NCBI GenBank assembly: GCA_964291405.2
Contig: OZ219926.1
Span: 3,040,001 to 3,104,000, forward strand
Length of the DNA: 64,000 bases
Source of the DNA: Thermodesulfobacteriota bacterium
GTDB lineage: Bacteria; Desulfobacterota; Binatia; Bin18
Direction of reading: 5' to 3'
This document shows, piece by piece, positions 22,748-30,323 of this stretch. The notes below the pieces were generated by a model. That model saw only the letters and a list, made by a program, of their open reading frames with translations. It was not told the DNA's origin and ran no database searches. A program made the translations under genes and the position numbers. The stretch's first letter is position 1. Each line of letters begins with the position of its first letter.

Positions 22748-23542
22748 ATGGGACAACTGGAAAACAAAGTCGCTCTCATTACCGGCTCCGGGCGGGGGCA
22801 GGGGCTGGTGGCCGCCAAGCGCTTTGCCTCAGAAGGGGCGAAGATCGTGATCAACGACCTGGACGCGGAGTCTGTTGAGGCTGCGGTTGCCGCGGTCAAA
22901 AACGCTGGTGGCGAAGCTGTTGGGGCCGTCGGAGATGTATCGAAAGCCGCAGACGTGCAAGCTGTTCTGCAAACCGCCCAGGACGCCTTTGGCGGGTTTG
23001 ACATTCTGTATAACAACGCCGGGATCGGCTACTCGGCGACCTCGCGCTTCGGCATTGCCATGAGTGATATCGTCAACTGTACCGAGGATGACTGGCGGCG
23101 CATTATGGATATCAATGTCGGTGGGATTTTTCTATTTTGCAAATACGGGATTCCCCGGCTGATCGAACGCGGAGGCGGGGTCATTATCAACACCGCCTCC
23201 ATTGCCGCTCTGCGCGGGGCTCAGGACGCGCACGCCTACACCGCCAGCAAAGGCGCTATTCTGGCCCTGACCAGGGCGATTGCGGTGACCTATGGCCCTA
23301 AAGGCATCCGTGCCAACACGCTCTGCCCCGGCGTGATCGACACCGAAATGATTCACGATACCTTAATCAGCCAGAAGGGCATCAGCGATCTCCTGGCCCG
23401 CAACACCCCGCTCCAGCGCAACGGCACGCCGGAAGATGTGGCCGATGTGGCGCTCTTCCTGGCGAGCGATCAGTCACGTTTTGTGACGGGTGAGGCGTTT
23501 GCCATCGATGGCGGGATCATCCAGCATCTTGGGTTGGCCTAG
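22748..23542 (+). CDS. SDR family oxidoreductase
   Basis: TGSGRGQG, NNAG, YTASK, RANTLCPG. Confidence 0.93.
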   Translation: MGQLENKVALITGSGRGQGLVAAKRFASEGAKIVINDLDAESVEAAVAAVKNAGGEAVGAVGDVSKAADVQAVLQTAQDAFGGFDILYNNAGIGYSATSRFGIAMSDIVNCTEDDWRRIMDINVGGIFLFCKYGIPRLIERGGGVIINTASIAALRGAQDAHAYTASKGAILALTRAIAVTYGPKGIRANTLCPGVIDTEMIHDTLISQKGISDLLARNTPLQRNGTPEDVADVALFLASDQSRFVTGEAFAIDGGIIQHLGLA

Positions 23543-23567
23543 GCCGAGTATTAAAAAAGGGGAATTT

Positions 23568-24518
23568 ATGGATCAGGAACAACTCGTCAGAGTGTACAAG
23601 AACTCGGTGCTGGCGCGGCGCTTTGAGGCGAAAATCGTCGAGCTGGCCATGGCCGGCGAACTGCCACCCGCGTTGCACGTCGGCGCCGGCCAGGAGGTGG
23701 CGCAGATCGCCGCCATCGAGGCCCTGCGGCCCGACGATTATATCCTGTACGGCCATCGCGGTGTGGCGTATATGGTCGCTCGGGGCGTGAGCCTGGCCGA
23801 TATGCTGGCCGATATGGCCGGCAAGGAGGGCGCGACCAGTCGAGGCAAGGGCGGGGTGATGCACGTCGTGGACGTACCAAAGGGCATTCTGGGTGAGAGC
23901 GGGACTTTGGGCGGTAGCTTCGTTGTCTCGGTTGGCGTGGGCATGGCGCTCAAGCGTAAGCAGCCGGACACGGTCGTGACCTATTTCTTTGGAGATGGGA
24001 CCGCGAACCGGGGCCCGTTCCACGAGGCGCTCAACTGGGCCGCAGTTCAGAAACTGCCCTGTATCTATTTTTGTGAGAATAACGGCCTCGCGATTTCCAT
24101 GCCGACCAGCCGCTCGACCGCCGTCGAGAATATCGCGGACCGGGCCGCAGGCTATAACGTCCCTGGAGTGGTGGTTGACGGGAATGATCCGGTGGCGGTG
24201 TACGAAGTCATGGAACAGGCCGTGGCGCGGGCGCGGGCCGGCTACGGCCCAACGCTGATTGAAGCCAAGGTGACGCGGCTGCAAGGACATTATGTAGCCG
24301 ACCAGCAGGAATACCGGGCCGACATCGACCAAGTAGCGGAAAAAGACCCCTTGCCGAAGCTGCAACAGACCCTGTGTGACCGGGGCATGCTGACACAGTC
24401 GGACGTGGATGACATACAGGCCGCCGCAGACCAACAGATCGAAGCAGCCGTAGCAGTCATGCGCGCGGCCCCGCTGCTTGCACCGGAAGTCGCTCTGCAA
24501 GACGTGTATGCGGAGTGA
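23568..24518 (+). CDS. TPP-dependent 2-oxoacid/acetoin dehydrogenase E1 alpha
   Basis: GQE, HRG, GKGGVMH, GDG...ENN TPP-binding motif. Confidence 0.93.
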   Translation: MDQEQLVRVYKNSVLARRFEAKIVELAMAGELPPALHVGAGQEVAQIAAIEALRPDDYILYGHRGVAYMVARGVSLADMLADMAGKEGATSRGKGGVMHVVDVPKGILGESGTLGGSFVVSVGVGMALKRKQPDTVVTYFFGDGTANRGPFHEALNWAAVQKLPCIYFCENNGLAISMPTSRSTAVENIADRAAGYNVPGVVVDGNDPVAVYEVMEQAVARARAGYGPTLIEAKVTRLQGHYVADQQEYRADIDQVAEKDPLPKLQQTLCDRGMLTQSDVDDIQAAADQQIEAAVAVMRAAPLLAPEVALQDVYAE

Positions 24519-24541
24519 GCAGCCAAGCGGAGTACACAACC

Positions 24542-25513
24542 ATGCCAACACTGACCTACAGTCAGGCGATTAACGATGCGCTCGCCGAAGAAATGCAGCG
24601 CGATGAAAACGTGATTTTGTACGGCCAGGACGTTGCGGTCTGGGGCGGGATTTTCAAAGTCACCGACGGGCTGCTTGAAAAGTTCGGTCCGGATCGTGTG
24701 TTCGATACGCCTATCTCCGAAAGCGTGATGGTCGGCGCCGGTGTGGGTGCGGCTTCGATGGGCTTGCGGCCGGTGGTGGAACTTCAGTTTGCCGATTTTG
24801 TCATTACCGCGGGTGATGAAATTTTCTTTAAGGCTGGCATGTGGCGCTATATGCACGGCGGGGCGCATACGATTCCGCTGGTGGTGCGGGCCCCCTCGGG
24901 CGGCTCGGGCTTTGGGCCCGAGCATTCCGCCTGTCCCGAAGCCTTTATCATGCACGCTCCCGGTCTGTTGTGTGCCGTCCCCTCAACGCCGGAAGATGCC
25001 AAGGGTCTGCTCAAGCAGGCGATTCGACTCGATAACCCGGTCATCTATTTTGAGCACAAACTGCTGTATCAAATGCGGGATGAGGTGGCGGACGGAGAGG
25101 TCTTGACGCCCTTTGGCAAAGCGGTTGTCCGACGCGAGGGCGAAGCCGTGACGATTGTGGCCTGGCAGGACATGCTGCGCCGTTCGCTCGCGGCGGCGGA
25201 ACGGCTGAGCCAGGAGGGCATCGAGGTCGAGATCGTTGACCCGCGTACCCTGAATCCGTTTGATAGAGAAACCATTATCGAGTCGGTCAAAAAGACTGGA
25301 GCTTGTATTGTGGTTGAAGAGGCCTATCGCACGCTCGGGGTTGGGGCGGAGATCGGAGCCCTGCTCGTAGAAGAGGCCCTGCCTTATCTGGACAAACCGC
25401 TCAAGCGCCTGGCCATTCCTGATGTACCGATTCCGACCAGTCAACACCTGGTCGATGCCATCGTTCCTTCGGTGGACGATATTTACCGGGCGGTCAGAGA
25501 ACTCGTTGACTGA
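24542..25513 (+). CDS. 2-oxoacid/acetoin dehydrogenase E1 beta
   Basis: DRVFDTPISES, GLRPVVELQFADF, NPVIYFEHKLLY, VDPRTLNPFD. Confidence 0.94.
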   Translation: MPTLTYSQAINDALAEEMQRDENVILYGQDVAVWGGIFKVTDGLLEKFGPDRVFDTPISESVMVGAGVGAASMGLRPVVELQFADFVITAGDEIFFKAGMWRYMHGGAHTIPLVVRAPSGGSGFGPEHSACPEAFIMHAPGLLCAVPSTPEDAKGLLKQAIRLDNPVIYFEHKLLYQMRDEVADGEVLTPFGKAVVRREGEAVTIVAWQDMLRRSLAAAERLSQEGIEVEIVDPRTLNPFDRETIIESVKKTGACIVVEEAYRTLGVGAEIGALLVEEALPYLDKPLKRLAIPDVPIPTSQHLVDAIVPSVDDIYRAVRELVD

Positions 25514-25520
25514 GGCTGGT

Positions 25521-27140
25521 GTGCAAAATACCAAAGTCGTGATGCCCAAACTCGGCCAGGCCATGACTGAGGGCGTGGTTGTGCGGTGGCACCGCAAAGA
25601 CGGCGAGCGCGTCACTGTCGGCGAGCTGCTCGTCACGGTAGAGACGGACAAAGCCACGTACGATCTTGAGGCGACGGCGAGTGGGACGCTCCACGTCGTG
25701 GTCCAAGAAGGCGAAGAAGTCCCGATTCATACTGTTATTGCCGAAATTGGCGACGCTCCGGTCCAGGCGGGTACCGCGCCCACTCCGTTGCTGGTTGAAC
25801 CGGTTGTCCAACGGCAAAAAGCGTCACGCCCAGGGCGCATCCTCGCCTCGCCAAAGGCCAAACGGCTGGCCGCTGAACGCGGGATCGACCTCTCGGCCCT
25901 GACGCCGTCCTCTGCGGATGGCGTGATTTCCGCGACTGATGTGGAGCGGGCTGCGGAGAGCGCGGTTGTCGATCGACGGCCAGCGGCCTCCGCTCATGTT
26001 GCGCCCCGGCGGACCGAGCACGAACGCCGCGCCCTGACCGGCATACGGAAGGCCGCAGCCCGCCGAGTCCAGGAAGCCTGGCAGACCATTCCGCATATTG
26101 TCCAGATGATCGATGTCGATGCCAGCGCCCTGCAAGCGGTCCGGGAGCGGCTCAGAGCGGATATCTCCGAACTGACGCTCAACGACCTGATTTTATACGC
26201 GGGGGCGCGGGTGCTGGCCGGACTGCCCGACCTCAATGGCACGGTCGAAAACGAAGAGCTTATTCTCTATGACGGTGTGGATATCGGCTTTGCCGTTGAC
26301 TCGCCGCGCGGCCTGCTGGTCCCGGTCATCCGTGGGGCGGACGGCCTTTCCCTCACATCGCTTGTGAAGGAAAGGCAGCGGCTAGTTGAAGCCGCTCGTG
26401 AGGGGCCGTTGCAATCGGCCGATATGGGTCAGGCCAGTCTGACCGTCTCCAACCTCGGCATGTTCGGCATCCGGGCCGGAACACCGGTCATCAATCTGGG
26501 TGAACCCATCCTCGTTTTTGTGGGCACGGTTGAAGAGCGGCCGGTTGTGCGCGGTGGGCAGATTATCGCCTGCCCCATGCTGACGCTCAGCATTGCCTAT
26601 GACCACCGGGTGGCGGACGGGGTGGCGGCGTCCCGGTTGAGTCAGGGTCTGAAAGAGGCGTTGGAGGAACTTGAGTCAACAGTCGAAAGTCAAAAGCCGG
26701 AAGCGTCGCGGTCCCAAGAATCGTTGGGCAAACGGGAAGTCCGTTCGGTGTCGGCCGGTGACCGCTATGCCGTTCAGGTGCGAAGTCACAGTCATGTCTG
26801 GAGCCTTGACGAGTCGGCGAGCGACGGCGGAGATGATACCGGCCCGGATCCGGTAACGGCCTTTCTTGGTGCCCTGCTCTCCTGCATGACGATTGCCTTC
26901 AAAGCGGCTGCCCGACGCCGCAAGATTGCCATTGAACGAATTGAGGGGCATGCCAAAGCACCGCCGAAGGGCCACGTGAAAGAAATAGCCTTAACCCTGG
27001 CGGTATGGAGTGCGGCTTCGGAGCAGGATTTACAGCTCCTCCTCGAACGGGCCAAGCGCGGCTGCTATGTGAGCGGGCTGCTAAGGCCGGATATTCAGCT
27101 TACGGTGGAGTTGGTCAGCCACGCGCCGGACTCTGCCTAG
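25521..27140 (+). CDS. dihydrolipoyl acyltransferase E2 fused to a C-terminal OsmC-like domain
   Basis: Lipoyl domain ETDKAT; PSBD ASPKAKRLAAERGIDL; catalytic DHRVADG; then DE...GGDDTGPDP...GALLSCM...AKRGCYVS, all in one uninterrupted frame. Confidence 0.88.
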   Translation: MQNTKVVMPKLGQAMTEGVVVRWHRKDGERVTVGELLVTVETDKATYDLEATASGTLHVVVQEGEEVPIHTVIAEIGDAPVQAGTAPTPLLVEPVVQRQKASRPGRILASPKAKRLAAERGIDLSALTPSSADGVISATDVERAAESAVVDRRPAASAHVAPRRTEHERRALTGIRKAAARRVQEAWQTIPHIVQMIDVDASALQAVRERLRADISELTLNDLILYAGARVLAGLPDLNGTVENEELILYDGVDIGFAVDSPRGLLVPVIRGADGLSLTSLVKERQRLVEAAREGPLQSADMGQASLTVSNLGMFGIRAGTPVINLGEPILVFVGTVEERPVVRGGQIIACPMLTLSIAYDHRVADGVAASRLSQGLKEALEELESTVESQKPEASRSQESLGKREVRSVSAGDRYAVQVRSHSHVWSLDESASDGGDDTGPDPVTAFLGALLSCMTIAFKAAARRRKIAIERIEGHAKAPPKGHVKEIALTLAVWSAASEQDLQLLLERAKRGCYVSGLLRPDIQLTVELVSHAPDSA

Positions 27141-27141
27141 T

Positions 27142-27180
27142 TCCCTCGCCCCCAAGGGGGAGAGGGGTAAGGTTAGGGAG
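27142..27180. repeat. REP-like hairpin between convergent genes
   Basis: CCCTCGCCCCCAAGGGGGAGAGGG imperfect palindrome. Confidence 0.45.
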
Positions 27181-27216
27181 TCGCAGTAGCGACGCTATCG
27201 AGTTGTCTGGACCTGC

Positions 27217-28152
27217 CTATCCATGCAGGGCGGCTTTCAATGCCGCGGCGGCCGTTTCCAATGCCTGCCCTGCCGGCTCTATGGCCTTGGCCATACCCAT
27301 AAAGCCGTGGATGAGCCCCTCGAAGCAGGTGTATTCGACCGCGACGCCCGCTTCACGTAGCTTGGCCGCGTACGCGGCTCCCTCGTCCCGCAGAGGATCG
27401 TATTCCGCGGTGGCAATAAAAGCCGGCGGCAGGGAGCGGCATTGATCGGCTGAGGCGTGCAGGGGAGATGCCAGCGGGTTTTGTCCATCCGCCCCACTGG
27501 CGAGATAGTGATTCCAGAACCACTCCATCATCTCGGTTGTCAGAAAATAGCCTTCCGCATTGTCCGTGTGCGACGGCAGGTCTACTGCGTGCGCCGTGAC
27601 CGGGTACATGAGGAATTGATAAATCAGAGCTGGCAGGCCACTCTCTTGTGCCTTTAGGGTCACCGCGGCTGCCAGGTTGGCGCCGGCACTCTCACCGCCC
27701 ACCGCCAGCCGAGAGGCGTCTCCGTTCAAGGCGGCTGCGTTGAACGCCACCCACCGTGTCGCAGCGTAGCAGTCATTGACCGCTGCTGGGAATTTGTCTT
27801 CCGGCGCGAGGCGGTAGTCTGCGGAGACCACCACACAGTTGGCAAGATTGGCCAAGGCGCGGCAGGAGGCATCCACCGTGTTCAGACTGCCGACCACCCA
27901 GCCACCCCCGTGAAAATAGACCAATAGGGGAAATGGCCCGTCCCCGGTGGGAGTGTAAACACGGATGGGCTGTTTGCCGGCAACCCCGGGTATCAGTCGG
28001 TCTTCGACCGTACCGACCGGCTCGGGGTCAGCCGTCGCACCCCGCGCGGCTTCCATGGCGGCCCGCGCTTCCTGGGGTGAGAGATGATGTAAGGGTGGGC
28101 CGGCAGCGGCCATCTGTTCGAGGGCTTTTGCAACCTGGGGATGGAGTGGCAT
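27217..28152 (-). CDS. HSL-family esterase (alpha/beta hydrolase)
   Basis: HGGGW, DYRLAPE, GESAG, DPLRDEG, HGF. Confidence 0.94.
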   Translation of the reverse strand: MPLHPQVAKALEQMAAAGPPLHHLSPQEARAAMEAARGATADPEPVGTVEDRLIPGVAGKQPIRVYTPTGDGPFPLLVYFHGGGWVVGSLNTVDASCRALANLANCVVVSADYRLAPEDKFPAAVNDCYAATRWVAFNAAALNGDASRLAVGGESAGANLAAAVTLKAQESGLPALIYQFLMYPVTAHAVDLPSHTDNAEGYFLTTEMMEWFWNHYLASGADGQNPLASPLHASADQCRSLPPAFIATAEYDPLRDEGAAYAAKLREAGVAVEYTCFEGLIHGFMGMAKAIEPAGQALETAAAALKAALHG

Positions 28153-28179
28153 GGCGTTTTCCTTTCATCCGAGTGCACA

Positions 28180-28962
28180 TCATGTCAGAAAATTACGTAT
28201 GAGCCGGACACATTCGGCCGGCTTTTCCAGTGGCGGACAGTTGCCGCATTGCGGAATAATCTCCAGGCGGGCGTTGGGTAGCGCGTGCTGATACAAGGTG
28301 CCGCACTCCAGCGGTACGATCCGATCGTCCTGACCCCAGATAATCAGAGTCGGCAAATGCACCCGGCCTAGCAGCCCAGGCAGACTGGGGCTGAACATAT
28401 ACGGCTTCCAACAGTAGCGGACCAGGGTTTCCTGGTTACGCGTTTGTATGTCGCGCTCTTCCTTGGACGGCTTACCCTGGAACAGTTCGGCATACTCGGC
28501 AACCTGCTGCGGATCGAAATACGCCAGTTGTCTGGTACCCTCTTGTCCGTGCAGAAAGATATCGGCAATTTCGCCGTCCCGCGGTTGGATACCGGCCGCG
28601 TCAATCAGAATGAGCCGCTCAAATGTTCTCGGCGACATGACCGCCATTTCTGCTGCCAGCCAGCCGCCGATGAAGTGGCCGGCCAGGGTCACCTGAGGCA
28701 GGTCCAGCGCGTCCAACAGCCATAAACTGAAACGGGCCAGGTCCGTGAAGGATTCGAGCCAGGGGGGACGCTCGGATTGTCCAAAGCCCGGACAGGTTGG
28801 CGCATAGACGGTAAAGGACTCGGCTAACTGTTCATGATATTGCCGCCAGCCCAGACTGCCTTCCGCGCCGTGCAGCATGATCAGCGGCTTGCCCTGGCCG
28901 CCTTTCAGATAATGAATTTGGGCGCCGCCAACTTCGATAGCGTGTTCCGCGTGTTCTGGCAT
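28180..28962 (-). CDS. alpha/beta hydrolase-fold protein lacking catalytic Ser and His
   Basis: LHGAEG, PGFGQS, PTLIIWGQDD are typical; nucleophile elbow reads GHFIGG and the His site reads CGNCP. Confidence 0.88.
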   Translation of the reverse strand: MPEHAEHAIEVGGAQIHYLKGGQGKPLIMLHGAEGSLGWRQYHEQLAESFTVYAPTCPGFGQSERPPWLESFTDLARFSLWLLDALDLPQVTLAGHFIGGWLAAEMAVMSPRTFERLILIDAAGIQPRDGEIADIFLHGQEGTRQLAYFDPQQVAEYAELFQGKPSKEERDIQTRNQETLVRYCWKPYMFSPSLPGLLGRVHLPTLIIWGQDDRIVPLECGTLYQHALPNARLEIIPQCGNCPPLEKPAECVRLIRNFLT

Positions 28963-28981
28963 GAGCGTATCTCTCGGTATG

Positions 28982-30196
28982 CTACGGGGCTTGTTCAAAG
29001 GGTCCGGGCAGCCCCAGCTCTTTTCCCATTTCCCGGACTGCCGGGAGCACGTCATGCTCCATCAGGGCTAAGCAGCGCATCGTGTCTGCATGCCCGATGG
29101 TGCCATCGTTTGTCCAGACGCCAAGAATGCCGGGGCGGACAACGCTGAGGACTTCGCGTAATTTTCTGATCACCGTGTCCGGGTTGCCGACAATAACCCG
29201 GTTGCTTTCCACAACCTTCTCCCAGCCCGCGGAATCAACGCCGCCGTAGAGGGGGTCAGGCCGGAGCGAATAGCGCCGGTACTGGTCGACAATGCGCTTG
29301 GCTCCTTCGCGCGAGTTATAGCCCGGTGGGGCCATGAAGTCTCCCGGTAGCGGCACGCGACCGACACCGGCATTCCCAATCAGAAAGCCCTTGCCGACCT
29401 CATATGCTTTTTCGTCCGTGTCCTGGACATGGACGCGCACAAGATAGCCAAAGTTTTGTGGACCCGGTTCATAGCCCACCTGCTTAGCGGCCTCGGTATA
29501 AATGGCGGTCAGGTCCAGGGTCACCTGGGGGTCGGTTTCCAGATAGATGTAGGGGTAGTGGTGCTGGGCACACCAGATCAGCGTCTCCGGGCTGCCGATA
29601 CCGGGAATCCAGATGGGCGGATGCGGCTGTTGGAGCGGCCGCTCAAAGGGGTTGACCACCCGAAACTGGTAATGCTTACCTTCCCAGCGCCACGGCCCTG
29701 GGGTTGTCCAGGTTTTGATGATCAGGTCATGCGCCTCTTCAAAACGCTCGCGGTTATACACCGGGTTGGTATTCGTTGCCCAGCTCTCGATGCCCGTTCC
29801 CCGCACGAAGCCTGACACGAGTCGGCCCCGAGAGATCATATCGATCTCCGCCAGCTCCTCGGCCAGTCGTAGCGGGTTATCGAAAATCGGGAGCGGATTG
29901 CCCAGCAGGACGATTTTTGCCCGCTTGGTGGTACGGGCCAGGATGGCGGCTTCGAGATTCATGGCCGCCCCCATACACGTCGGGGTATTATGATGCTCGT
30001 TCAGCATCAGGCCGTCGAAGCCAACCTCTTCGGCGTACTCGTACTCGTCGAGATAGGTATTATACAGGTCCGCCCCCAGGCTTGGATTGAAATAGGCATT
30101 CGGAAACGTCAGGCGGACCGCGCTACGAAAACTCTGACGAACATCTTCTTCCGAGTAGTCTACATAGGCTCGCTCGGTAAAACGCATGAGAAACAT
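28982..30196 (-). CDS. LLM-class flavin-dependent oxidoreductase
   Basis: AEEVGFDGLMLNEHH, LAEELAEIDMISRGRL, RPLQQPHPPIW; start could be 30187, 30196 or 30202. Confidence 0.92.
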   Translation of the reverse strand: MFLMRFTERAYVDYSEEDVRQSFRSAVRLTFPNAYFNPSLGADLYNTYLDEYEYAEEVGFDGLMLNEHHNTPTCMGAAMNLEAAILARTTKRAKIVLLGNPLPIFDNPLRLAEELAEIDMISRGRLVSGFVRGTGIESWATNTNPVYNRERFEEAHDLIIKTWTTPGPWRWEGKHYQFRVVNPFERPLQQPHPPIWIPGIGSPETLIWCAQHHYPYIYLETDPQVTLDLTAIYTEAAKQVGYEPGPQNFGYLVRVHVQDTDEKAYEVGKGFLIGNAGVGRVPLPGDFMAPPGYNSREGAKRIVDQYRRYSLRPDPLYGGVDSAGWEKVVESNRVIVGNPDTVIRKLREVLSVVRPGILGVWTNDGTIGHADTMRCLALMEHDVLPAVREMGKELGLPGPFEQAP

Positions 30197-30323
30197 ACCC
30201 ATGCCCCTCCTTCCTCCCTCGGACACTATCCTGTCTGGTATCACCGGATCAAGGGAAAGGGGCGGACGCAGCTTGACTCTTGTCCGCAGGCCGCATACGG
30301 ATAGCCGAAGAGGAGGACTGACT

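What the first reader, a model, noticed from the sequence alone, without database searches (positions are those of the whole stretch)
22748..27140. E2-OsmC fusion in an E3-less dehydrogenase operon: candidate self-contained 2-oxoacid-fuelled thiol peroxidase or redox relay
Seen: operon SDR-E1alpha-E1beta-E2. E2 has intact lipoyl-Lys (ETDKA), PSBD and DHRVADG, then continues in frame (about 26730-27140) into an OsmC-like domain with both Cys (GALLSCM, TGC 26883; KRGCYVS, TGC 27063). No lpd/E3 gene is in the operon or window. Known: Ohr/OsmC peroxidases are reduced by lipoylated E2 proteins, and mycobacteria couple DlaT to AhpD/AhpC. Inference: substrate oxidation by E1 reduces the lipoyl arm and the fused domain re-oxidises it, passing electrons to peroxides or disulfides instead of NAD+. 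The SDR may supply the substrate. Caveats: the domain looks YhfA-like (DPV instead of NPE), so sulfur/disulfide chemistry is as plausible as peroxidase activity, and the retained PSBD could recruit E3 in trans.
Basis: partly seen in the sequence, partly recalled or inferred. Interest (0 to 1): 0.82.

Follow-up and report, generated by a model that had tools for sequence, protein, structure and literature searches.

The report
E2 acyltransferase fused to OsmC-like domain
The lipoate-carrying core subunit (E2) of a pyruvate-dehydrogenase-like complex here carries a conserved extra two-cysteine OsmC-like domain, a fusion shared by one bacterial class and many salt-loving archaea that probably ties the lipoate arm to peroxide or disulfide reduction.

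Summary
One ORF (window 25521/25542-27140) encodes lipoyl domain, PSBD, E2 catalytic domain, a roughly 20-residue linker and an OsmC-family domain. It is not a lost stop codon. I hold 267 fused homologues, from Candidatus Binatia (55 of 401 sampled class genomes have a junction-spanning match) and from many named haloarchaea (86 of 120 best E2-core hits). Both cysteines are kept in 268 of 268, the DHR motif in 267 of 267, and the lipoyl-lysine motif in 242 of 243 full-length proteins. DNA and metatranscriptome contigs bridge the junction.

The domain belongs to the poorly characterised Ohr-like/YhfA-like group. The catalytic Glu of Ohr/OsmC is Val/Ile/Leu in 268 of 268.

The "E3-less, self-contained" reading is weak. 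The genome has one true lpd, another E2 operon also lacks an adjacent lpd, and a Haloarcula plasmid has OsmC, E2-OsmC and lpdA in a row without an adjacent E1.

Best reading (about 0.5): a lipoyl-dependent thiol oxidoreductase, probably a peroxidase, tethered to its reductant. Ten literature searches found no description of the fusion.

The parts
22748..23542 (+). SDR-family oxidoreductase, first gene of the operon in this Binatia family only
   Evidence: Pfam adh_short_C2 4.7e-64. NCBIfam best hits are generic SDRs; glucose 1-dehydrogenase subfamily 240 bits against cut-off 215, BudC 220 against 270. Present upstream in 19 of 22 related loci. Absent in 10 of 10 loci of family f5.
23568..24518 (+). 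E1 alpha subunit (ThDP-dependent 2-oxoacid dehydrogenase E1, heterotetrameric type)
   Evidence: Pfam E1_dh 3e-70. NCBIfam PDH E1alpha models 258 and 248 bits, below cut-offs 394 and 411. One of four E1alpha genes in the genome.
24515..25513 (+). E1 beta subunit (ORF as listed; likely start ATG 24542)
   Evidence: Pfam Transket_pyr plus Transketolase_C. NCBIfam PDH E1beta subfamily NF006667 331.9 bits against cut-off 321. Nearest solved chains are PDH E1beta 1ik6, 3duf and 1w85. 64% identical between the two Binatia families.
25542..25748 (+). Lipoyl domain of E2 (residues 1-69; Lys37 codon 25650-25652). The gene may start at GTG 25521.
   Evidence: Pfam Biotin_lipoyl 3.8e-14. ETDKA motif with Lys in 115 of 115 N-terminally complete close homologues. 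Lipoyl-Lys motif in 242 of 243 fused proteins of at least 500 aa.
25839..25946 (+). Peripheral-subunit-binding domain (PSBD, residues 100-135)
   Evidence: Pfam E3_binding 2e-09. PF02817 is listed for most fused homologues; some haloarchaeal forms have two.
26016..26678 (+). E2 acyltransferase catalytic domain (residues 159-379; His355 codon 26604-26606)
   Evidence: Pfam 2-oxoacid_dh 4.3e-62. DHR motif in 267 of 267 fused proteins. Nearest solved cores are PDH E2. Local alignments to solved cores stop 4-7 residues before those chains end.
26679..26726 (+). Linker between E2 core and OsmC-like domain (polar, Ser/Glu/Pro/Ala-rich)
   Evidence: Across 267 fused proteins the gap between the core and OsmC profile matches has a median of 22 residues (range 8-159) and is rich in S, E, P and A. 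Metatranscriptome contig X20 record 19 covers 26656-27827 region start, precisely 26656-26827, with no differences.
26727..27137 (+). OsmC-superfamily domain of the Ohr-like/YhfA-like group (Cys448 codon 26883-26885; Cys508 codon 27063-27065; stop 27138-27140)
   Evidence: Pfam OsmC 49.3 bits against 27.5. NCBIfam OsmC_like_Se 55.2 against 95 and OsmC TIGR03562 20.4 against 85.8, so not a member of either. Both Cys in 268 of 268, Val/Ile/Leu at the Ohr/OsmC Glu position in 268 of 268. By profile the nearest solved chains are 9wo1, 3cje, 2opl, 3eer, 2onf and 2pn2.
27217..30244 (-). Convergent cluster: LipP1-type hormone-sensitive-lipase-family esterase (27217-28152), alpha/beta hydrolase (28180-29055), luciferase-like monooxygenase (28982-30244). 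A lineage-specific neighbour, not part of the conserved core.
   Evidence: Pfam and NCBIfam. All three present in 19 of 22 related loci, with the LLM 87-99% identical. Absent beside the fusion in family f5 and in haloarchaeal loci.

Best explanation
The gene encodes a complete, catalytically competent E2 (lipoyl domain, PSBD, acyltransferase core) whose C-terminus is joined by a flexible linker to a two-cysteine domain of the Ohr-like/YhfA-like branch of the OsmC superfamily. Most likely this domain is a thiol oxidoreductase whose reductant is the dihydrolipoyl-lysine arm of the same E2 scaffold. Cys448 would be oxidised by a hydroperoxide (or attacks a disulfide-type substrate), would form a disulfide with Cys508, and the dihydrolipoyl arm would reduce that disulfide. 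The arm can be charged in two ways. One is E1alpha-beta turnover of a pyruvate-like 2-oxoacid followed by acyl transfer to CoA. The other is NADH through the genome's single Lpd, recruited in trans by the PSBD. The fusion therefore hard-wires an antioxidant or thiol-redox module to a 2-oxoacid dehydrogenase core. Shown here: the architecture, its conservation and the gene contexts. Inferred: every catalytic step, the oxidant and the electron route.
For: (1) The architecture is real and old. There are 267 fused homologues. 115 of 120 best hits to the window's E2 core and 86 of 120 best hits to a haloarchaeal E2 core carry PF02566. Two well-supported E2-core clades, one from Binatia and one haloarchaeal, each have SH-aLRT 99.
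(2) Everything the mechanism needs is under selection together. Both Cys are kept in 268 of 268, DHR in 267 of 267, and the lipoyl-Lys motif in 242 of 243 proteins of at least 500 aa.
(3) Established biochemistry fits. Ohr and OsmC disulfides are reduced by lipoylated proteins and not by Trx or GSH (passages of review PMC8945050). An Ohr-like protein of Trichomonas was reported active with lipoylated H and L proteins (passage of PMC5384416). The reduced lipoate of Mtb DlaT drives AhpD/AhpC and can be made by E1 turnover or by E3/NADH (passage of PMC12995895).
(4) Contexts pair the fusion with either electron source. E1alpha-E1beta is adjacent in 19 of 22 loci, in 10 of 10 f5 loci and in the one further f1 locus L046, and in 5 haloarchaeal metagenome contigs. 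On a Haloarcula plasmid the row is a stand-alone OsmC, E2-OsmC and lpdA with no adjacent E1.
(5) The stand-alone paralogue in this genome lies behind a DsbD_TM-AhpC/TSA redoxin gene, which is a thiol-redox setting.
(6) Contigs of metatranscriptomic libraries cover the E2 core, the linker and the OsmC part.
Against: The domain lacks the catalytic Glu of Ohr/OsmC (Val/Ile/Leu in 268 of 268) and fails the NCBIfam OsmC and OsmC-selenoprotein cut-offs. Peroxidase activity is unproven or disputed for this third group: TvOsmC was inactive in the hands of Meireles et al. (PMC5384416 passage), and esterase-OsmC fusions showed no activity with DTT (PMC5113044 passages). Five short Biotin_lipoyl+OsmC proteins that looked like independent support have no Lys at the aligned lipoylation site (0 of 5). 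The domain has been lost repeatedly: Haloferax and other unfused orthologues are nested among fused ones, there is a decayed copy in L033/G441, and four same-genus genomes have only the stand-alone paralogue. It is therefore dispensable. Whether a C-terminal domain can be reached by the N-terminal lipoyl arm is unknown, because no structure could be predicted. RNA-library contigs may contain DNA (tool caveat).
Confidence: 0.5

Rival explanations
1. One reading: a self-contained, E3-independent 2-oxoacid-fuelled peroxidase or redox relay. E1 reduces the lipoyl arm and the fused domain, not E3, is its physiological oxidant, so electrons bypass NAD+.
For: No lpd lies within about 10 kb of the fusion in 22 loci, in 10 f5 loci plus L046, or in the haloarchaeal contigs L048, L052 and L054. 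E1alpha-beta plus E2-OsmC is the conserved core in Binatia. E1-driven reduction of E2 lipoate feeding a peroxidase has a precedent in Mtb (PMC12995895 passage).
Against: The genome has one true lpd, next to another E2. The two other lpd-like genes are a PRK06370 FAD oxidoreductase and a glutathione reductase. The second E2 operon also lacks an adjacent lpd, so absence from the operon is uninformative. The PSBD is retained. A Haloarcula plasmid places lpdA (523 bits, over the cut-off) directly after the fused E2, with the only E1alpha about 30 kb away. Turnover limited by peroxide supply could not sustain catabolism.
Confidence: 0.15
2. Structural or regulatory module. The obligately dimeric OsmC fold at the E2 C-terminus replaces or supplements the canonical inter-trimer contact, or acts as a redox switch whose Cys448-Cys508 disulfide tunes core assembly or activity under oxidative stress, without catalytic turnover.
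For: The C-terminal helix of E2 makes the inter-trimer contact that builds 24- and 60-mers (PMC12995895 passages). Alignments of the window's E2 to solved cores end at residues 376-379, 4-7 residues before those chains end, and the following residues are polar. Active OsmC and Ohr are homodimers (PMC8945050 passage). The esterase-OsmC domain had no detectable enzyme activity. An engineered E2p with a C-terminal fusion exists among solved entries (8eqn, title only).
Against: Invariance of both Cys plus the P-x-P-V and D-E-P motifs across two domains of life suggests chemistry rather than a mere dimerisation handle, although a redox switch would also keep the Cys. Haloarchaeal forms keep a partly hydrophobic stretch after the core, so loss of the canonical contact is not general. 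No structural test was possible.
Confidence: 0.15
3. A different thiol chemistry. The domain may reduce or transfer persulfide, polysulfide or low-molecular-weight disulfides. It may instead repair or protect the lipoyl arm itself, for example by removing adducts or resolving aberrant lipoyl disulfides.
For: The catalytic Glu is absent. The best NCBIfam match is an OsmC-related (seleno)protein model rather than a peroxidase model. An OsmC-like protein is induced with a sulfide:quinone oxidoreductase and rhodanese cluster during disulfide catabolism in Rhodococcus (PMC5157978 passages). VOC/glyoxalase genes lie next to the stand-alone paralogue and next to a haloarchaeal fused gene.
Against: No sulfur-trafficking genes (rhodanese, TusA, DsrE, SQR) were seen in the annotated neighbours examined. 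The contexts are carbon-catabolic. All evidence is circumstantial.
Confidence: 0.15
4. Assembly or annotation artefact (a lost stop codon or a chimeric contig).
For: None found.
Against: There are hundreds of independent fused sequences. Gap-free DNA contigs from another study cross the junction (X3 record 25). A decayed copy with a frameshift and a stop in L033 shows what a broken version looks like.
Confidence: 0.01

Closest known systems
Ohr/OsmC lipoyl-dependent peroxidases with lipoylated E2 (SucB, PDH E2) and Lpd as separate proteins (Xylella fastidiosa and others; seen as passages of review PMC8945050, and of PMC5384416)
   Same: OsmC-superfamily fold by Pfam. Two Cys about 60 residues apart at the canonical positions. 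The proposed reductant is protein-bound dihydrolipoamide.
   Different: Here the domain is covalently fused to the E2. It lacks the catalytic Glu (268 of 268) and fails the OsmC family cut-off, so it is not a member of the Ohr or OsmC subfamilies. Activity is untested.
Ohr-like/YhfA-like third group of the OsmC superfamily (solved chains 3cje, 2pn2, 2onf, 1vla, 1lql, 1ml8; TvOsmC of Trichomonas)
   Same: Cys pair kept and Glu absent. These are among the nearest solved sequences by profile. TvOsmC was reported to work with lipoylated H protein and L protein (PMC5384416 passage).
   Different: Known members are stand-alone proteins of unknown or disputed function. This one sits on an E2 and has its own conserved motifs (D-E-P, G-G, P-x-P-V, R-x-C).
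Mycobacterial DlaT-AhpD-AhpC-Lpd peroxynitrite reductase/peroxidase (passages of PMC12995895)
   Same: An E2 lipoyl arm serves as electron hub for peroxide reduction. The arm is chargeable either by E1 2-oxoacid decarboxylation or by E3/NADH.
   Different: The acceptor there is a separate AhpD (another fold) that passes electrons to AhpC. There is no fusion and no OsmC-family domain.
Carboxyl esterases with a C-terminal OsmC domain (EstO/EstRM family; PMC5113044, passages; probably the type of solved entry 9wo1, title and alignment only)
   Same: A C-terminal fusion of an Ohr-like two-Cys domain to an unrelated enzyme. 9wo1 is the best profile match (118.8 bits).
   Different: The partner is an alpha/beta hydrolase without a lipoyl arm. 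No peroxidase activity was found with DTT.
Canonical PDH/BCKDH-type E2 (nearest solved cores 7uom, 3duf, 1b5s) and the unfused haloarchaeal orthologues such as those of Haloferax
   Same: Lipoyl domain, PSBD and catalytic core with DHRxxDG. E1alpha-beta partners. About 70% core identity between fused haloarchaeal E2 and unfused Haloferax E2.
   Different: An extra domain of about 135 residues follows the core. In the Binatia proteins the usual terminal helix is not recognisable.

Membership tests
2-oxoacid dehydrogenase E2 (dihydrolipoyl acyltransferase) | N-terminal lipoyl domain with the lipoylatable Lys in a D-K-A type turn | tested here: met
   Pfam Biotin_lipoyl. ETDKA Lys37 in 115 of 115 close homologues. 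Motif present in 242 of 243 fused proteins of at least 500 aa.
2-oxoacid dehydrogenase E2 (dihydrolipoyl acyltransferase) | Peripheral-subunit-binding domain | tested here: met
   Pfam E3_binding 37.9 bits against 23.7.
2-oxoacid dehydrogenase E2 (dihydrolipoyl acyltransferase) | Catalytic domain with the DHRxxDG His/Asp | tested here: met
   PF00198 at 4.3e-62. DHR in 267 of 267.
2-oxoacid dehydrogenase E2 (dihydrolipoyl acyltransferase) | Assignment to a substrate class (PDH, OGDH, BCKDH or acetoin) by a curated equivalog model | tested here: not met
   The best NCBIfam models, PDHac_trf_mito 231 against 445 and sucB 209 against 379, are all below cut-off. E1beta just passes a PDH E1beta subfamily model. 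The substrate therefore remains 'pyruvate-like, unproven'.
2-oxoacid dehydrogenase E2 (dihydrolipoyl acyltransferase) | C-terminal helical turn that docks into the neighbouring trimer (24- or 60-mer assembly) | tested here: inconclusive
   Local alignments to solved cores end 4-7 residues before the chain ends, and the window residues there are polar. No structure prediction was available.
Ohr subfamily (organic hydroperoxide resistance peroxidase) | Peroxidatic and resolving Cys about 60 residues apart | tested here: met
   Cys448 and Cys508 are 60 residues apart and are kept in 268 of 268.
Ohr subfamily (organic hydroperoxide resistance peroxidase) | Catalytic Glu ten residues before the peroxidatic Cys. 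The requirement for the Glu comes from PMC5384416 passages; its exact spacing is recalled. | tested here: not met
   That position is Val in 260, Ile in 5 and Leu in 3 of 268.
Ohr subfamily (organic hydroperoxide resistance peroxidase) | Catalytic Arg in the first beta-hairpin loop | tested here: inconclusive
   An Arg near the start of the domain (Arg398) is kept in 251 of 268. Its structural equivalence cannot be judged without a model.
OsmC subfamily (TIGR03562) | Score over the curated cut-off | tested here: not met
   20.4 bits against 85.8.
OsmC-related (seleno)protein NF041052 | Score over the curated cut-off | tested here: not met
   55.2 bits against 95. It is the best-scoring model but falls below the cut-off.
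Ohr-like / YhfA-like third group of the OsmC superfamily | OsmC fold with the conserved Cys pair but without the Ohr/OsmC Glu (definition from PMC5384416 and PMC8945050 passages) | tested here: met
   Pfam OsmC is over the gathering score. Cys pair present and Glu absent. The nearest solved sequences by profile include the Ohr-like entries 3cje, 2pn2, 2onf, 1lql and 1ml8. Whether the Arg is absent is unresolved.
Lipoyl-dependent peroxidase system (functional class) | Hydroperoxide reduction supported by dihydrolipoyl protein | not testable with these tools
   This needs enzyme assays. Only context and conservation bear on it.

The most novel reading that the evidence does not exclude
E2-OsmC is the core of a self-contained 2-oxoacid:hydroperoxide (or disulfide) oxidoreductase. 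E1alpha-beta charges the lipoyl arm, the fused Ohr-like dimer discharges it in place of E3, and the dimer also replaces the canonical C-terminal inter-trimer contact, which would give a new kind of E2 core architecture. This would assign a physiological reductant and role to the whole uncharacterised Ohr-like/YhfA-like branch. It would also show that carbon oxidation is wired directly to oxidant defence without NAD in Binatia and many haloarchaea.
Probability: 0.12. Interest if true: 0.85.

Novelty: new variant of a known kind. Interest (0 to 1): 0.62.

Why it matters
2-oxoacid dehydrogenase complexes are among the best-studied multienzyme machines, and their E2 C-terminus is the element that builds the core. 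A natural, widespread C-terminal domain on E2 is therefore unexpected.

The fusion is a Rosetta-stone link between a lipoyl carrier and the third, functionally unassigned branch of the Ohr/OsmC superfamily. It offers a direct way to learn what that branch does.

It occurs in many cultured haloarchaea (Natrinema, Natronococcus, Halorubrum, Halogranum and others). The sampled Haloferax orthologues lack it, which may be why it has gone unnoticed. Biochemistry and genetics are therefore feasible.

If peroxidase activity is confirmed, this would be a one-polypeptide version of the Ohr-lipoyl and DlaT-AhpD systems. It would be relevant to oxidative-stress physiology of sponge-associated Binatia and of haloarchaea.

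Tried and rejected
There is therefore no model and no fold search.
- Complex prediction of an OsmC-like dimer with the lipoyl domain: unavailable.
- The ESM Atlas does not hold the window's protein. With the haloarchaeal homologue P0162, its nearest cluster after its own was a Binatota E2 cluster (score 0.93). This is only a lead, and the E2-core tree could not resolve a link between the two clades.
- Biotin_lipoyl+OsmC two-domain proteins, considered as independent support for lipoyl coupling: rejected, because 0 of 5 keep a Lys at the aligned site.
- Stand-alone top hits P0124-P0126, considered as the closest free-living relatives: they lie on contigs of 1-2 kb and share clusters with 331- and 360-aa members, so they are probably fragments of fused genes.
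- First metagenome query A2 had no stretch conserved enough to search with. The narrower A3 worked. Of its 20 loci, only L048-L056 are E2-OsmC; the rest are weak or unrelated OsmC-like hits.
- Plasmid search with the OsmC part found the fusion on only one plasmid record.
- lpd search in the metagenome records behind L048 and L052-L054 was not possible because they are not held.
- Promoter and terminator scan of the operon gave nothing above shuffles.
- Acetoin-dehydrogenase reading of the operon: no support beyond a below-cut-off BudC hit for the SDR, and PDH-type best hits for E1 and E2.
- Parts of the stretch without cover in the RNA-library contigs are not interpreted.

Full report
**What is in the sequence**

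On the + strand the window carries four genes in a row:
- a short-chain dehydrogenase (22748-23542);
- E1alpha (23568-24518);
- E1beta (ORF 24515-25513, likely start 24542);
- one long ORF that ends at the TAG at 27138-27140.

Counted from ATG 25542, the last product has 532 residues. Pfam finds Biotin_lipoyl (1-69), E3_binding (100-135), 2-oxoacid_dh (159-379, E 4e-62) and OsmC (430-523, 49.3 bits against a gathering score of 27.5). Homologues are called at 539 aa, which fits a GTG at 25521 preceded by GAGG. All residue numbers below count from ATG 25542. The whole-genome scan for lipoamide dehydrogenase puts no hit inside the window.

**Not an artefact, and not rare**

- A search with the C-terminal 173 residues returned 192 proteins. 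All 120 listed carry both PF00198 and PF02566.
- A scan of one genome per species found 22 loci. Nineteen are titled Candidatus Binatia, two 'uncultured Enterobacteriaceae' and one 'Proteobacteria bacterium' (all MAG labels).
- In a sample of 401 genomes of the same class (including this one), 94 have some match, and these fall in only 3 of 20 families. By my count from the table, 55 have a single match that spans the E2/OsmC junction: 36 in families f1/f99 at 56-92% identity and 19 in family f5 at 34-43%.
- A profile-free search of 1.84 billion representatives with the OsmC part alone gave 278 hits. Of the 52 among the best 150 that are at least 200 aa long, 32 are 2-oxoacid_dh+OsmC, 7 are double OsmC, 5 are Biotin_lipoyl+OsmC, 2 are alpha/beta-hydrolase+OsmC and 1 is glycosyltransferase+OsmC.
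- Names attached to distant fused clusters are haloarchaeal: Natrialbaceae/Halovalidus, Halolamina and Halomarina.
- A search with a haloarchaeal E2 core showed PF02566 on 86 of the 120 best hits. These include many cultured genera (Natronococcus, Natrinema, Natronobacterium, Halobiforma, Halopiger, Halorubrum, Halogranum, Halobellus, Halalkaliarchaeum). The Haloferax orthologues, at about 70% core identity, are unfused.
- With the window's own core, 115 of 120 best hits are fused.
- DNA contigs from public runs cross the junction without gaps. X3 record 25 covers 25839-27001. X1 record 4 covers 22793-27200, but X1 may be the source sample. A contig of a metatranscriptomic library (X20 record 19, 26656-26827, no differences) covers the end of the core, the linker and the start of the OsmC part. 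The tool warns that such libraries can contain DNA.
- Half of the runs that hold the stretch (10 of 20) are labelled sponge metagenome.

**Conservation**

In query plus 120 close homologues, Lys37, His355, Cys448 and Cys508 are invariant wherever the residue is present. Results:
- Cys448 is kept in 268 of 268, Cys508 in 268 of 268 and Pro437 in 268 of 268.
- DHR is kept in 267 of 267.
- A lipoyl-Lys motif is present in 242 of 243 proteins of at least 500 aa. The exception has no lipoyl domain in its gene call.
- The linker between the two profile matches has a median of 22 residues (range 8-159) and is rich in Ser, Glu, Pro and Ala, like other E2 linkers.

**What kind of OsmC domain**

The position ten residues before Cys448, where Ohr and OsmC have their catalytic Glu, is Val in 260, Ile in 5 and Leu in 3 of 268. 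The Glu requirement comes from PMC5384416 passages; the exact spacing is recalled. The domain scores 20.4 bits against the OsmC model (cut-off 85.8). Its best model, OsmC-related (seleno)protein, reaches 55.2 against 95.

A profile of 80 relatives ranks solved chains as follows: 9wo1 (a 400-residue 'OsmC', 118.8 bits), 3cje, 2opl, 3eer, 2onf, 2pn2, 1vla, 6mjn, 1lql and 1ml8. All of these rank ahead of E. coli-type OsmC and most true Ohr entries. The domain therefore belongs to the third, Ohr-like/YhfA-like group. Two papers describe that group as keeping the Cys pair, lacking the Arg and Glu, and being biochemically unresolved (passages of PMC5384416, and PMC8945050).

An Arg near the start of the domain (Arg398) is kept in 251 of 268. 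Without a model I cannot say whether it plays the role of the Ohr Arg.

**Gene contexts**

In the window's own family, the order SDR-E1alpha-E1beta-E2-OsmC is found in 19 of 22 loci. Two further loci are cut by contig ends and one is decayed. The convergent esterase, hydrolase and luciferase-like monooxygenase trio is complete in 19 of 22.

In family f5 the row is E1alpha-E1beta-E2-OsmC in 10 of 10 loci. It has no SDR and no trio. The conserved core is therefore E1alpha-beta plus E2-OsmC.

With this genome's true Lpd as query, no lpd lies within about 10 kb in any of these loci: 0 of 22, 0 of 10, and 0 in L046. L047 is the same contig as L032.

Haloarchaeal metagenome contigs show E2-OsmC convergent with a VOC/glyoxalase gene, an NAD-kinase-like gene, E1beta and E1alpha. 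A 2-oxoacid:ferredoxin oxidoreductase lies upstream. No lpd was found within the flanks held. The E1 pair is seen in all 5 contigs with enough downstream DNA, but several of these are probably the same population.

On a Haloarcula ordinaria plasmid, by contrast, the order is a stand-alone OsmC (141 aa), E2-OsmC (583 aa) and lpdA (523 bits, over the cut-off). There is no E1 beside it; the only E1alpha on the replicon lies about 30 kb away. This is one record only.

**Is 'E3-less' meaningful?**

The genome has four E1alpha genes, three E2 genes and a single bona fide lpd, which lies next to E2 number 1. The two other lpd-like hits are a PRK06370-type FAD oxidoreductase and a glutathione reductase. 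The E2 number 2 operon also has no adjacent lpd. Sharing one Lpd in trans is therefore the rule in this organism. The PSBD is retained, and the Haloarcula arrangement pairs the fusion with lpdA. The absence of lpd from the operon cannot carry the inference that the OsmC-like domain replaces E3.

**Evolution**

A quick maximum-likelihood tree of 34 E2 cores gives a Binatia clade (13 rows, SH-aLRT 99) and a haloarchaeal clade (17 rows, 99). Unfused rows are nested in both, and well-supported branches force at least 4 gains or losses. The relation between the two clades is unresolved.

There are several signs of loss:
- L033/G441 holds a decayed copy, with a 5' deletion, a frameshift in the linker and a stop in the OsmC part.
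- Four same-genus genomes have only the stand-alone paralogue.

The domain is therefore ancient, long maintained and repeatedly lost. That pattern fits an accessory, condition-dependent function.

**Mechanism**

The best-supported reading is that the fused domain is a two-Cys thiol oxidoreductase that draws electrons from the dihydrolipoyl arm of its own scaffold, most plausibly to reduce hydroperoxides. The supporting points are:
- Ohr and OsmC disulfides are reduced by lipoylated proteins.
- An Ohr-like protein was reported to work with lipoylated H and L proteins, although another laboratory saw no activity.
- Mycobacterial DlaT feeds AhpD/AhpC with lipoate reduced either by E1 turnover or by E3/NADH.
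- The two kinds of context found here, E1 beside the fusion or lpdA beside it, match those two electron sources.
- The stand-alone paralogue of this genome follows a DsbD_TM-AhpC/TSA redoxin and a glyoxalase gene.

The counter-arguments are:
- The Glu is missing.
- Esterase-OsmC fusions were inactive with DTT.
- The five Biotin_lipoyl+OsmC proteins lack the lipoylation Lys.
- The domain is dispensable.
- Nothing is known of its geometry.

The C-terminus of E2 normally forms the inter-trimer contact. Alignments to solved cores stop 4-7 residues before their ends, and the window continues with polar residues. A structural or redox-switch role is therefore a serious rival.

I put the lipoyl-coupled oxidoreductase reading at about 0.5. 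The E3-independent variant, the structural or regulatory role and other thiol chemistry each get about 0.15.

**Novelty**

Automatic annotation already sees both parts: JGI names such as 'E2 component/uncharacterized OsmC-like protein' appear. Ten full-text searches found no paper that describes or discusses the fusion. Supplements were closed. One paper on esterase-OsmC proteins states that an OsmC domain linked to another enzymatic domain had not been seen before.

I file the finding as a new variant of a known kind: a lipoyl-dependent thiol peroxidase system in fused form, with an unassigned subfamily domain. Structure prediction, complex prediction and the scan's earlier findings were not available.

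Noticed in passing
L012:7530-7980 (also L017, L018, L020, L022, L027, L031); window 24512/24542: In 7 of 22 related loci a small ORF of about 120 codons (a helical protein that looks like the 'four-helix-bundle / 23S rRNA intervening sequence protein' type; that name is recalled, not tested) is inserted exactly between E1alpha and E1beta. It is flanked by G-rich and C-rich mirror-like stretches. A DNA contig of run X3 shows the same thing as 437 extra letters between window 24512 and 24542. The window itself lacks the insert. It looks like a small mobile or selfish cassette.
   Followed up: partly
L033:9500-10560 (= G441:C1:732933-733500): A decayed copy of the operon in a same-genus genome. 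SDR, E1 and the 5' half of E2 are gone, the linker has a frameshift, and a stop lies inside the OsmC part. The esterase, hydrolase and LLM trio next to it is intact.
   Followed up: yes
P0157, P0161, P0178, P0209, P0218 (P0281 is labelled Candidatus Binataceae): Proteins of about 240-260 aa with a Biotin_lipoyl-like domain fused directly to the same kind of OsmC-like domain but without an E2 core. None has a Lys at the aligned lipoylation site. Their function is unknown.
   Followed up: partly
window 27217-30244 (- strand): A LipP1-type esterase, an alpha/beta hydrolase and a luciferase-like monooxygenase lie convergent to the operon. The monooxygenase is the best-conserved protein of the neighbourhood (87-99% identity over 19 loci), more so than E1 or E2. 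This may be a ketone or ester catabolic route linked to the SDR; that was not tested.
   Followed up: no
L011:895-1800 (G000:C3:3933575-3934480) and L052:10425-10952: A VOC/glyoxalase-family gene lies directly beside the stand-alone OsmC-like paralogue of this genome, which itself follows a DsbD_TM-AhpC/TSA redoxin gene. Another VOC gene lies beside a haloarchaeal E2-OsmC gene. This may be coincidence or a hint at 2-oxoaldehyde chemistry.
   Followed up: no
window 27141-27185: Directly after the stop codon lies a C-rich then G-rich palindrome-like stretch. It is similar in flavour to the flanks of the inserted small ORF in relatives, and it has no T-run.
   Followed up: no
P0393, P0395, P0399, P0400 (Haloferax) against the fused haloarchaeal E2s: The Haloferax orthologues (about 70% core identity) lack the OsmC-like domain and nest among fused sequences in the tree. 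This probably reflects a secondary loss, and it may explain why the fusion has not been studied.
   Followed up: partly
runs X3-X12, X19, X20: Half of the public runs that hold this stretch (10 of 20, including both RNA-library holders) are labelled sponge metagenome, so the organism appears to be sponge-associated.
   Followed up: no
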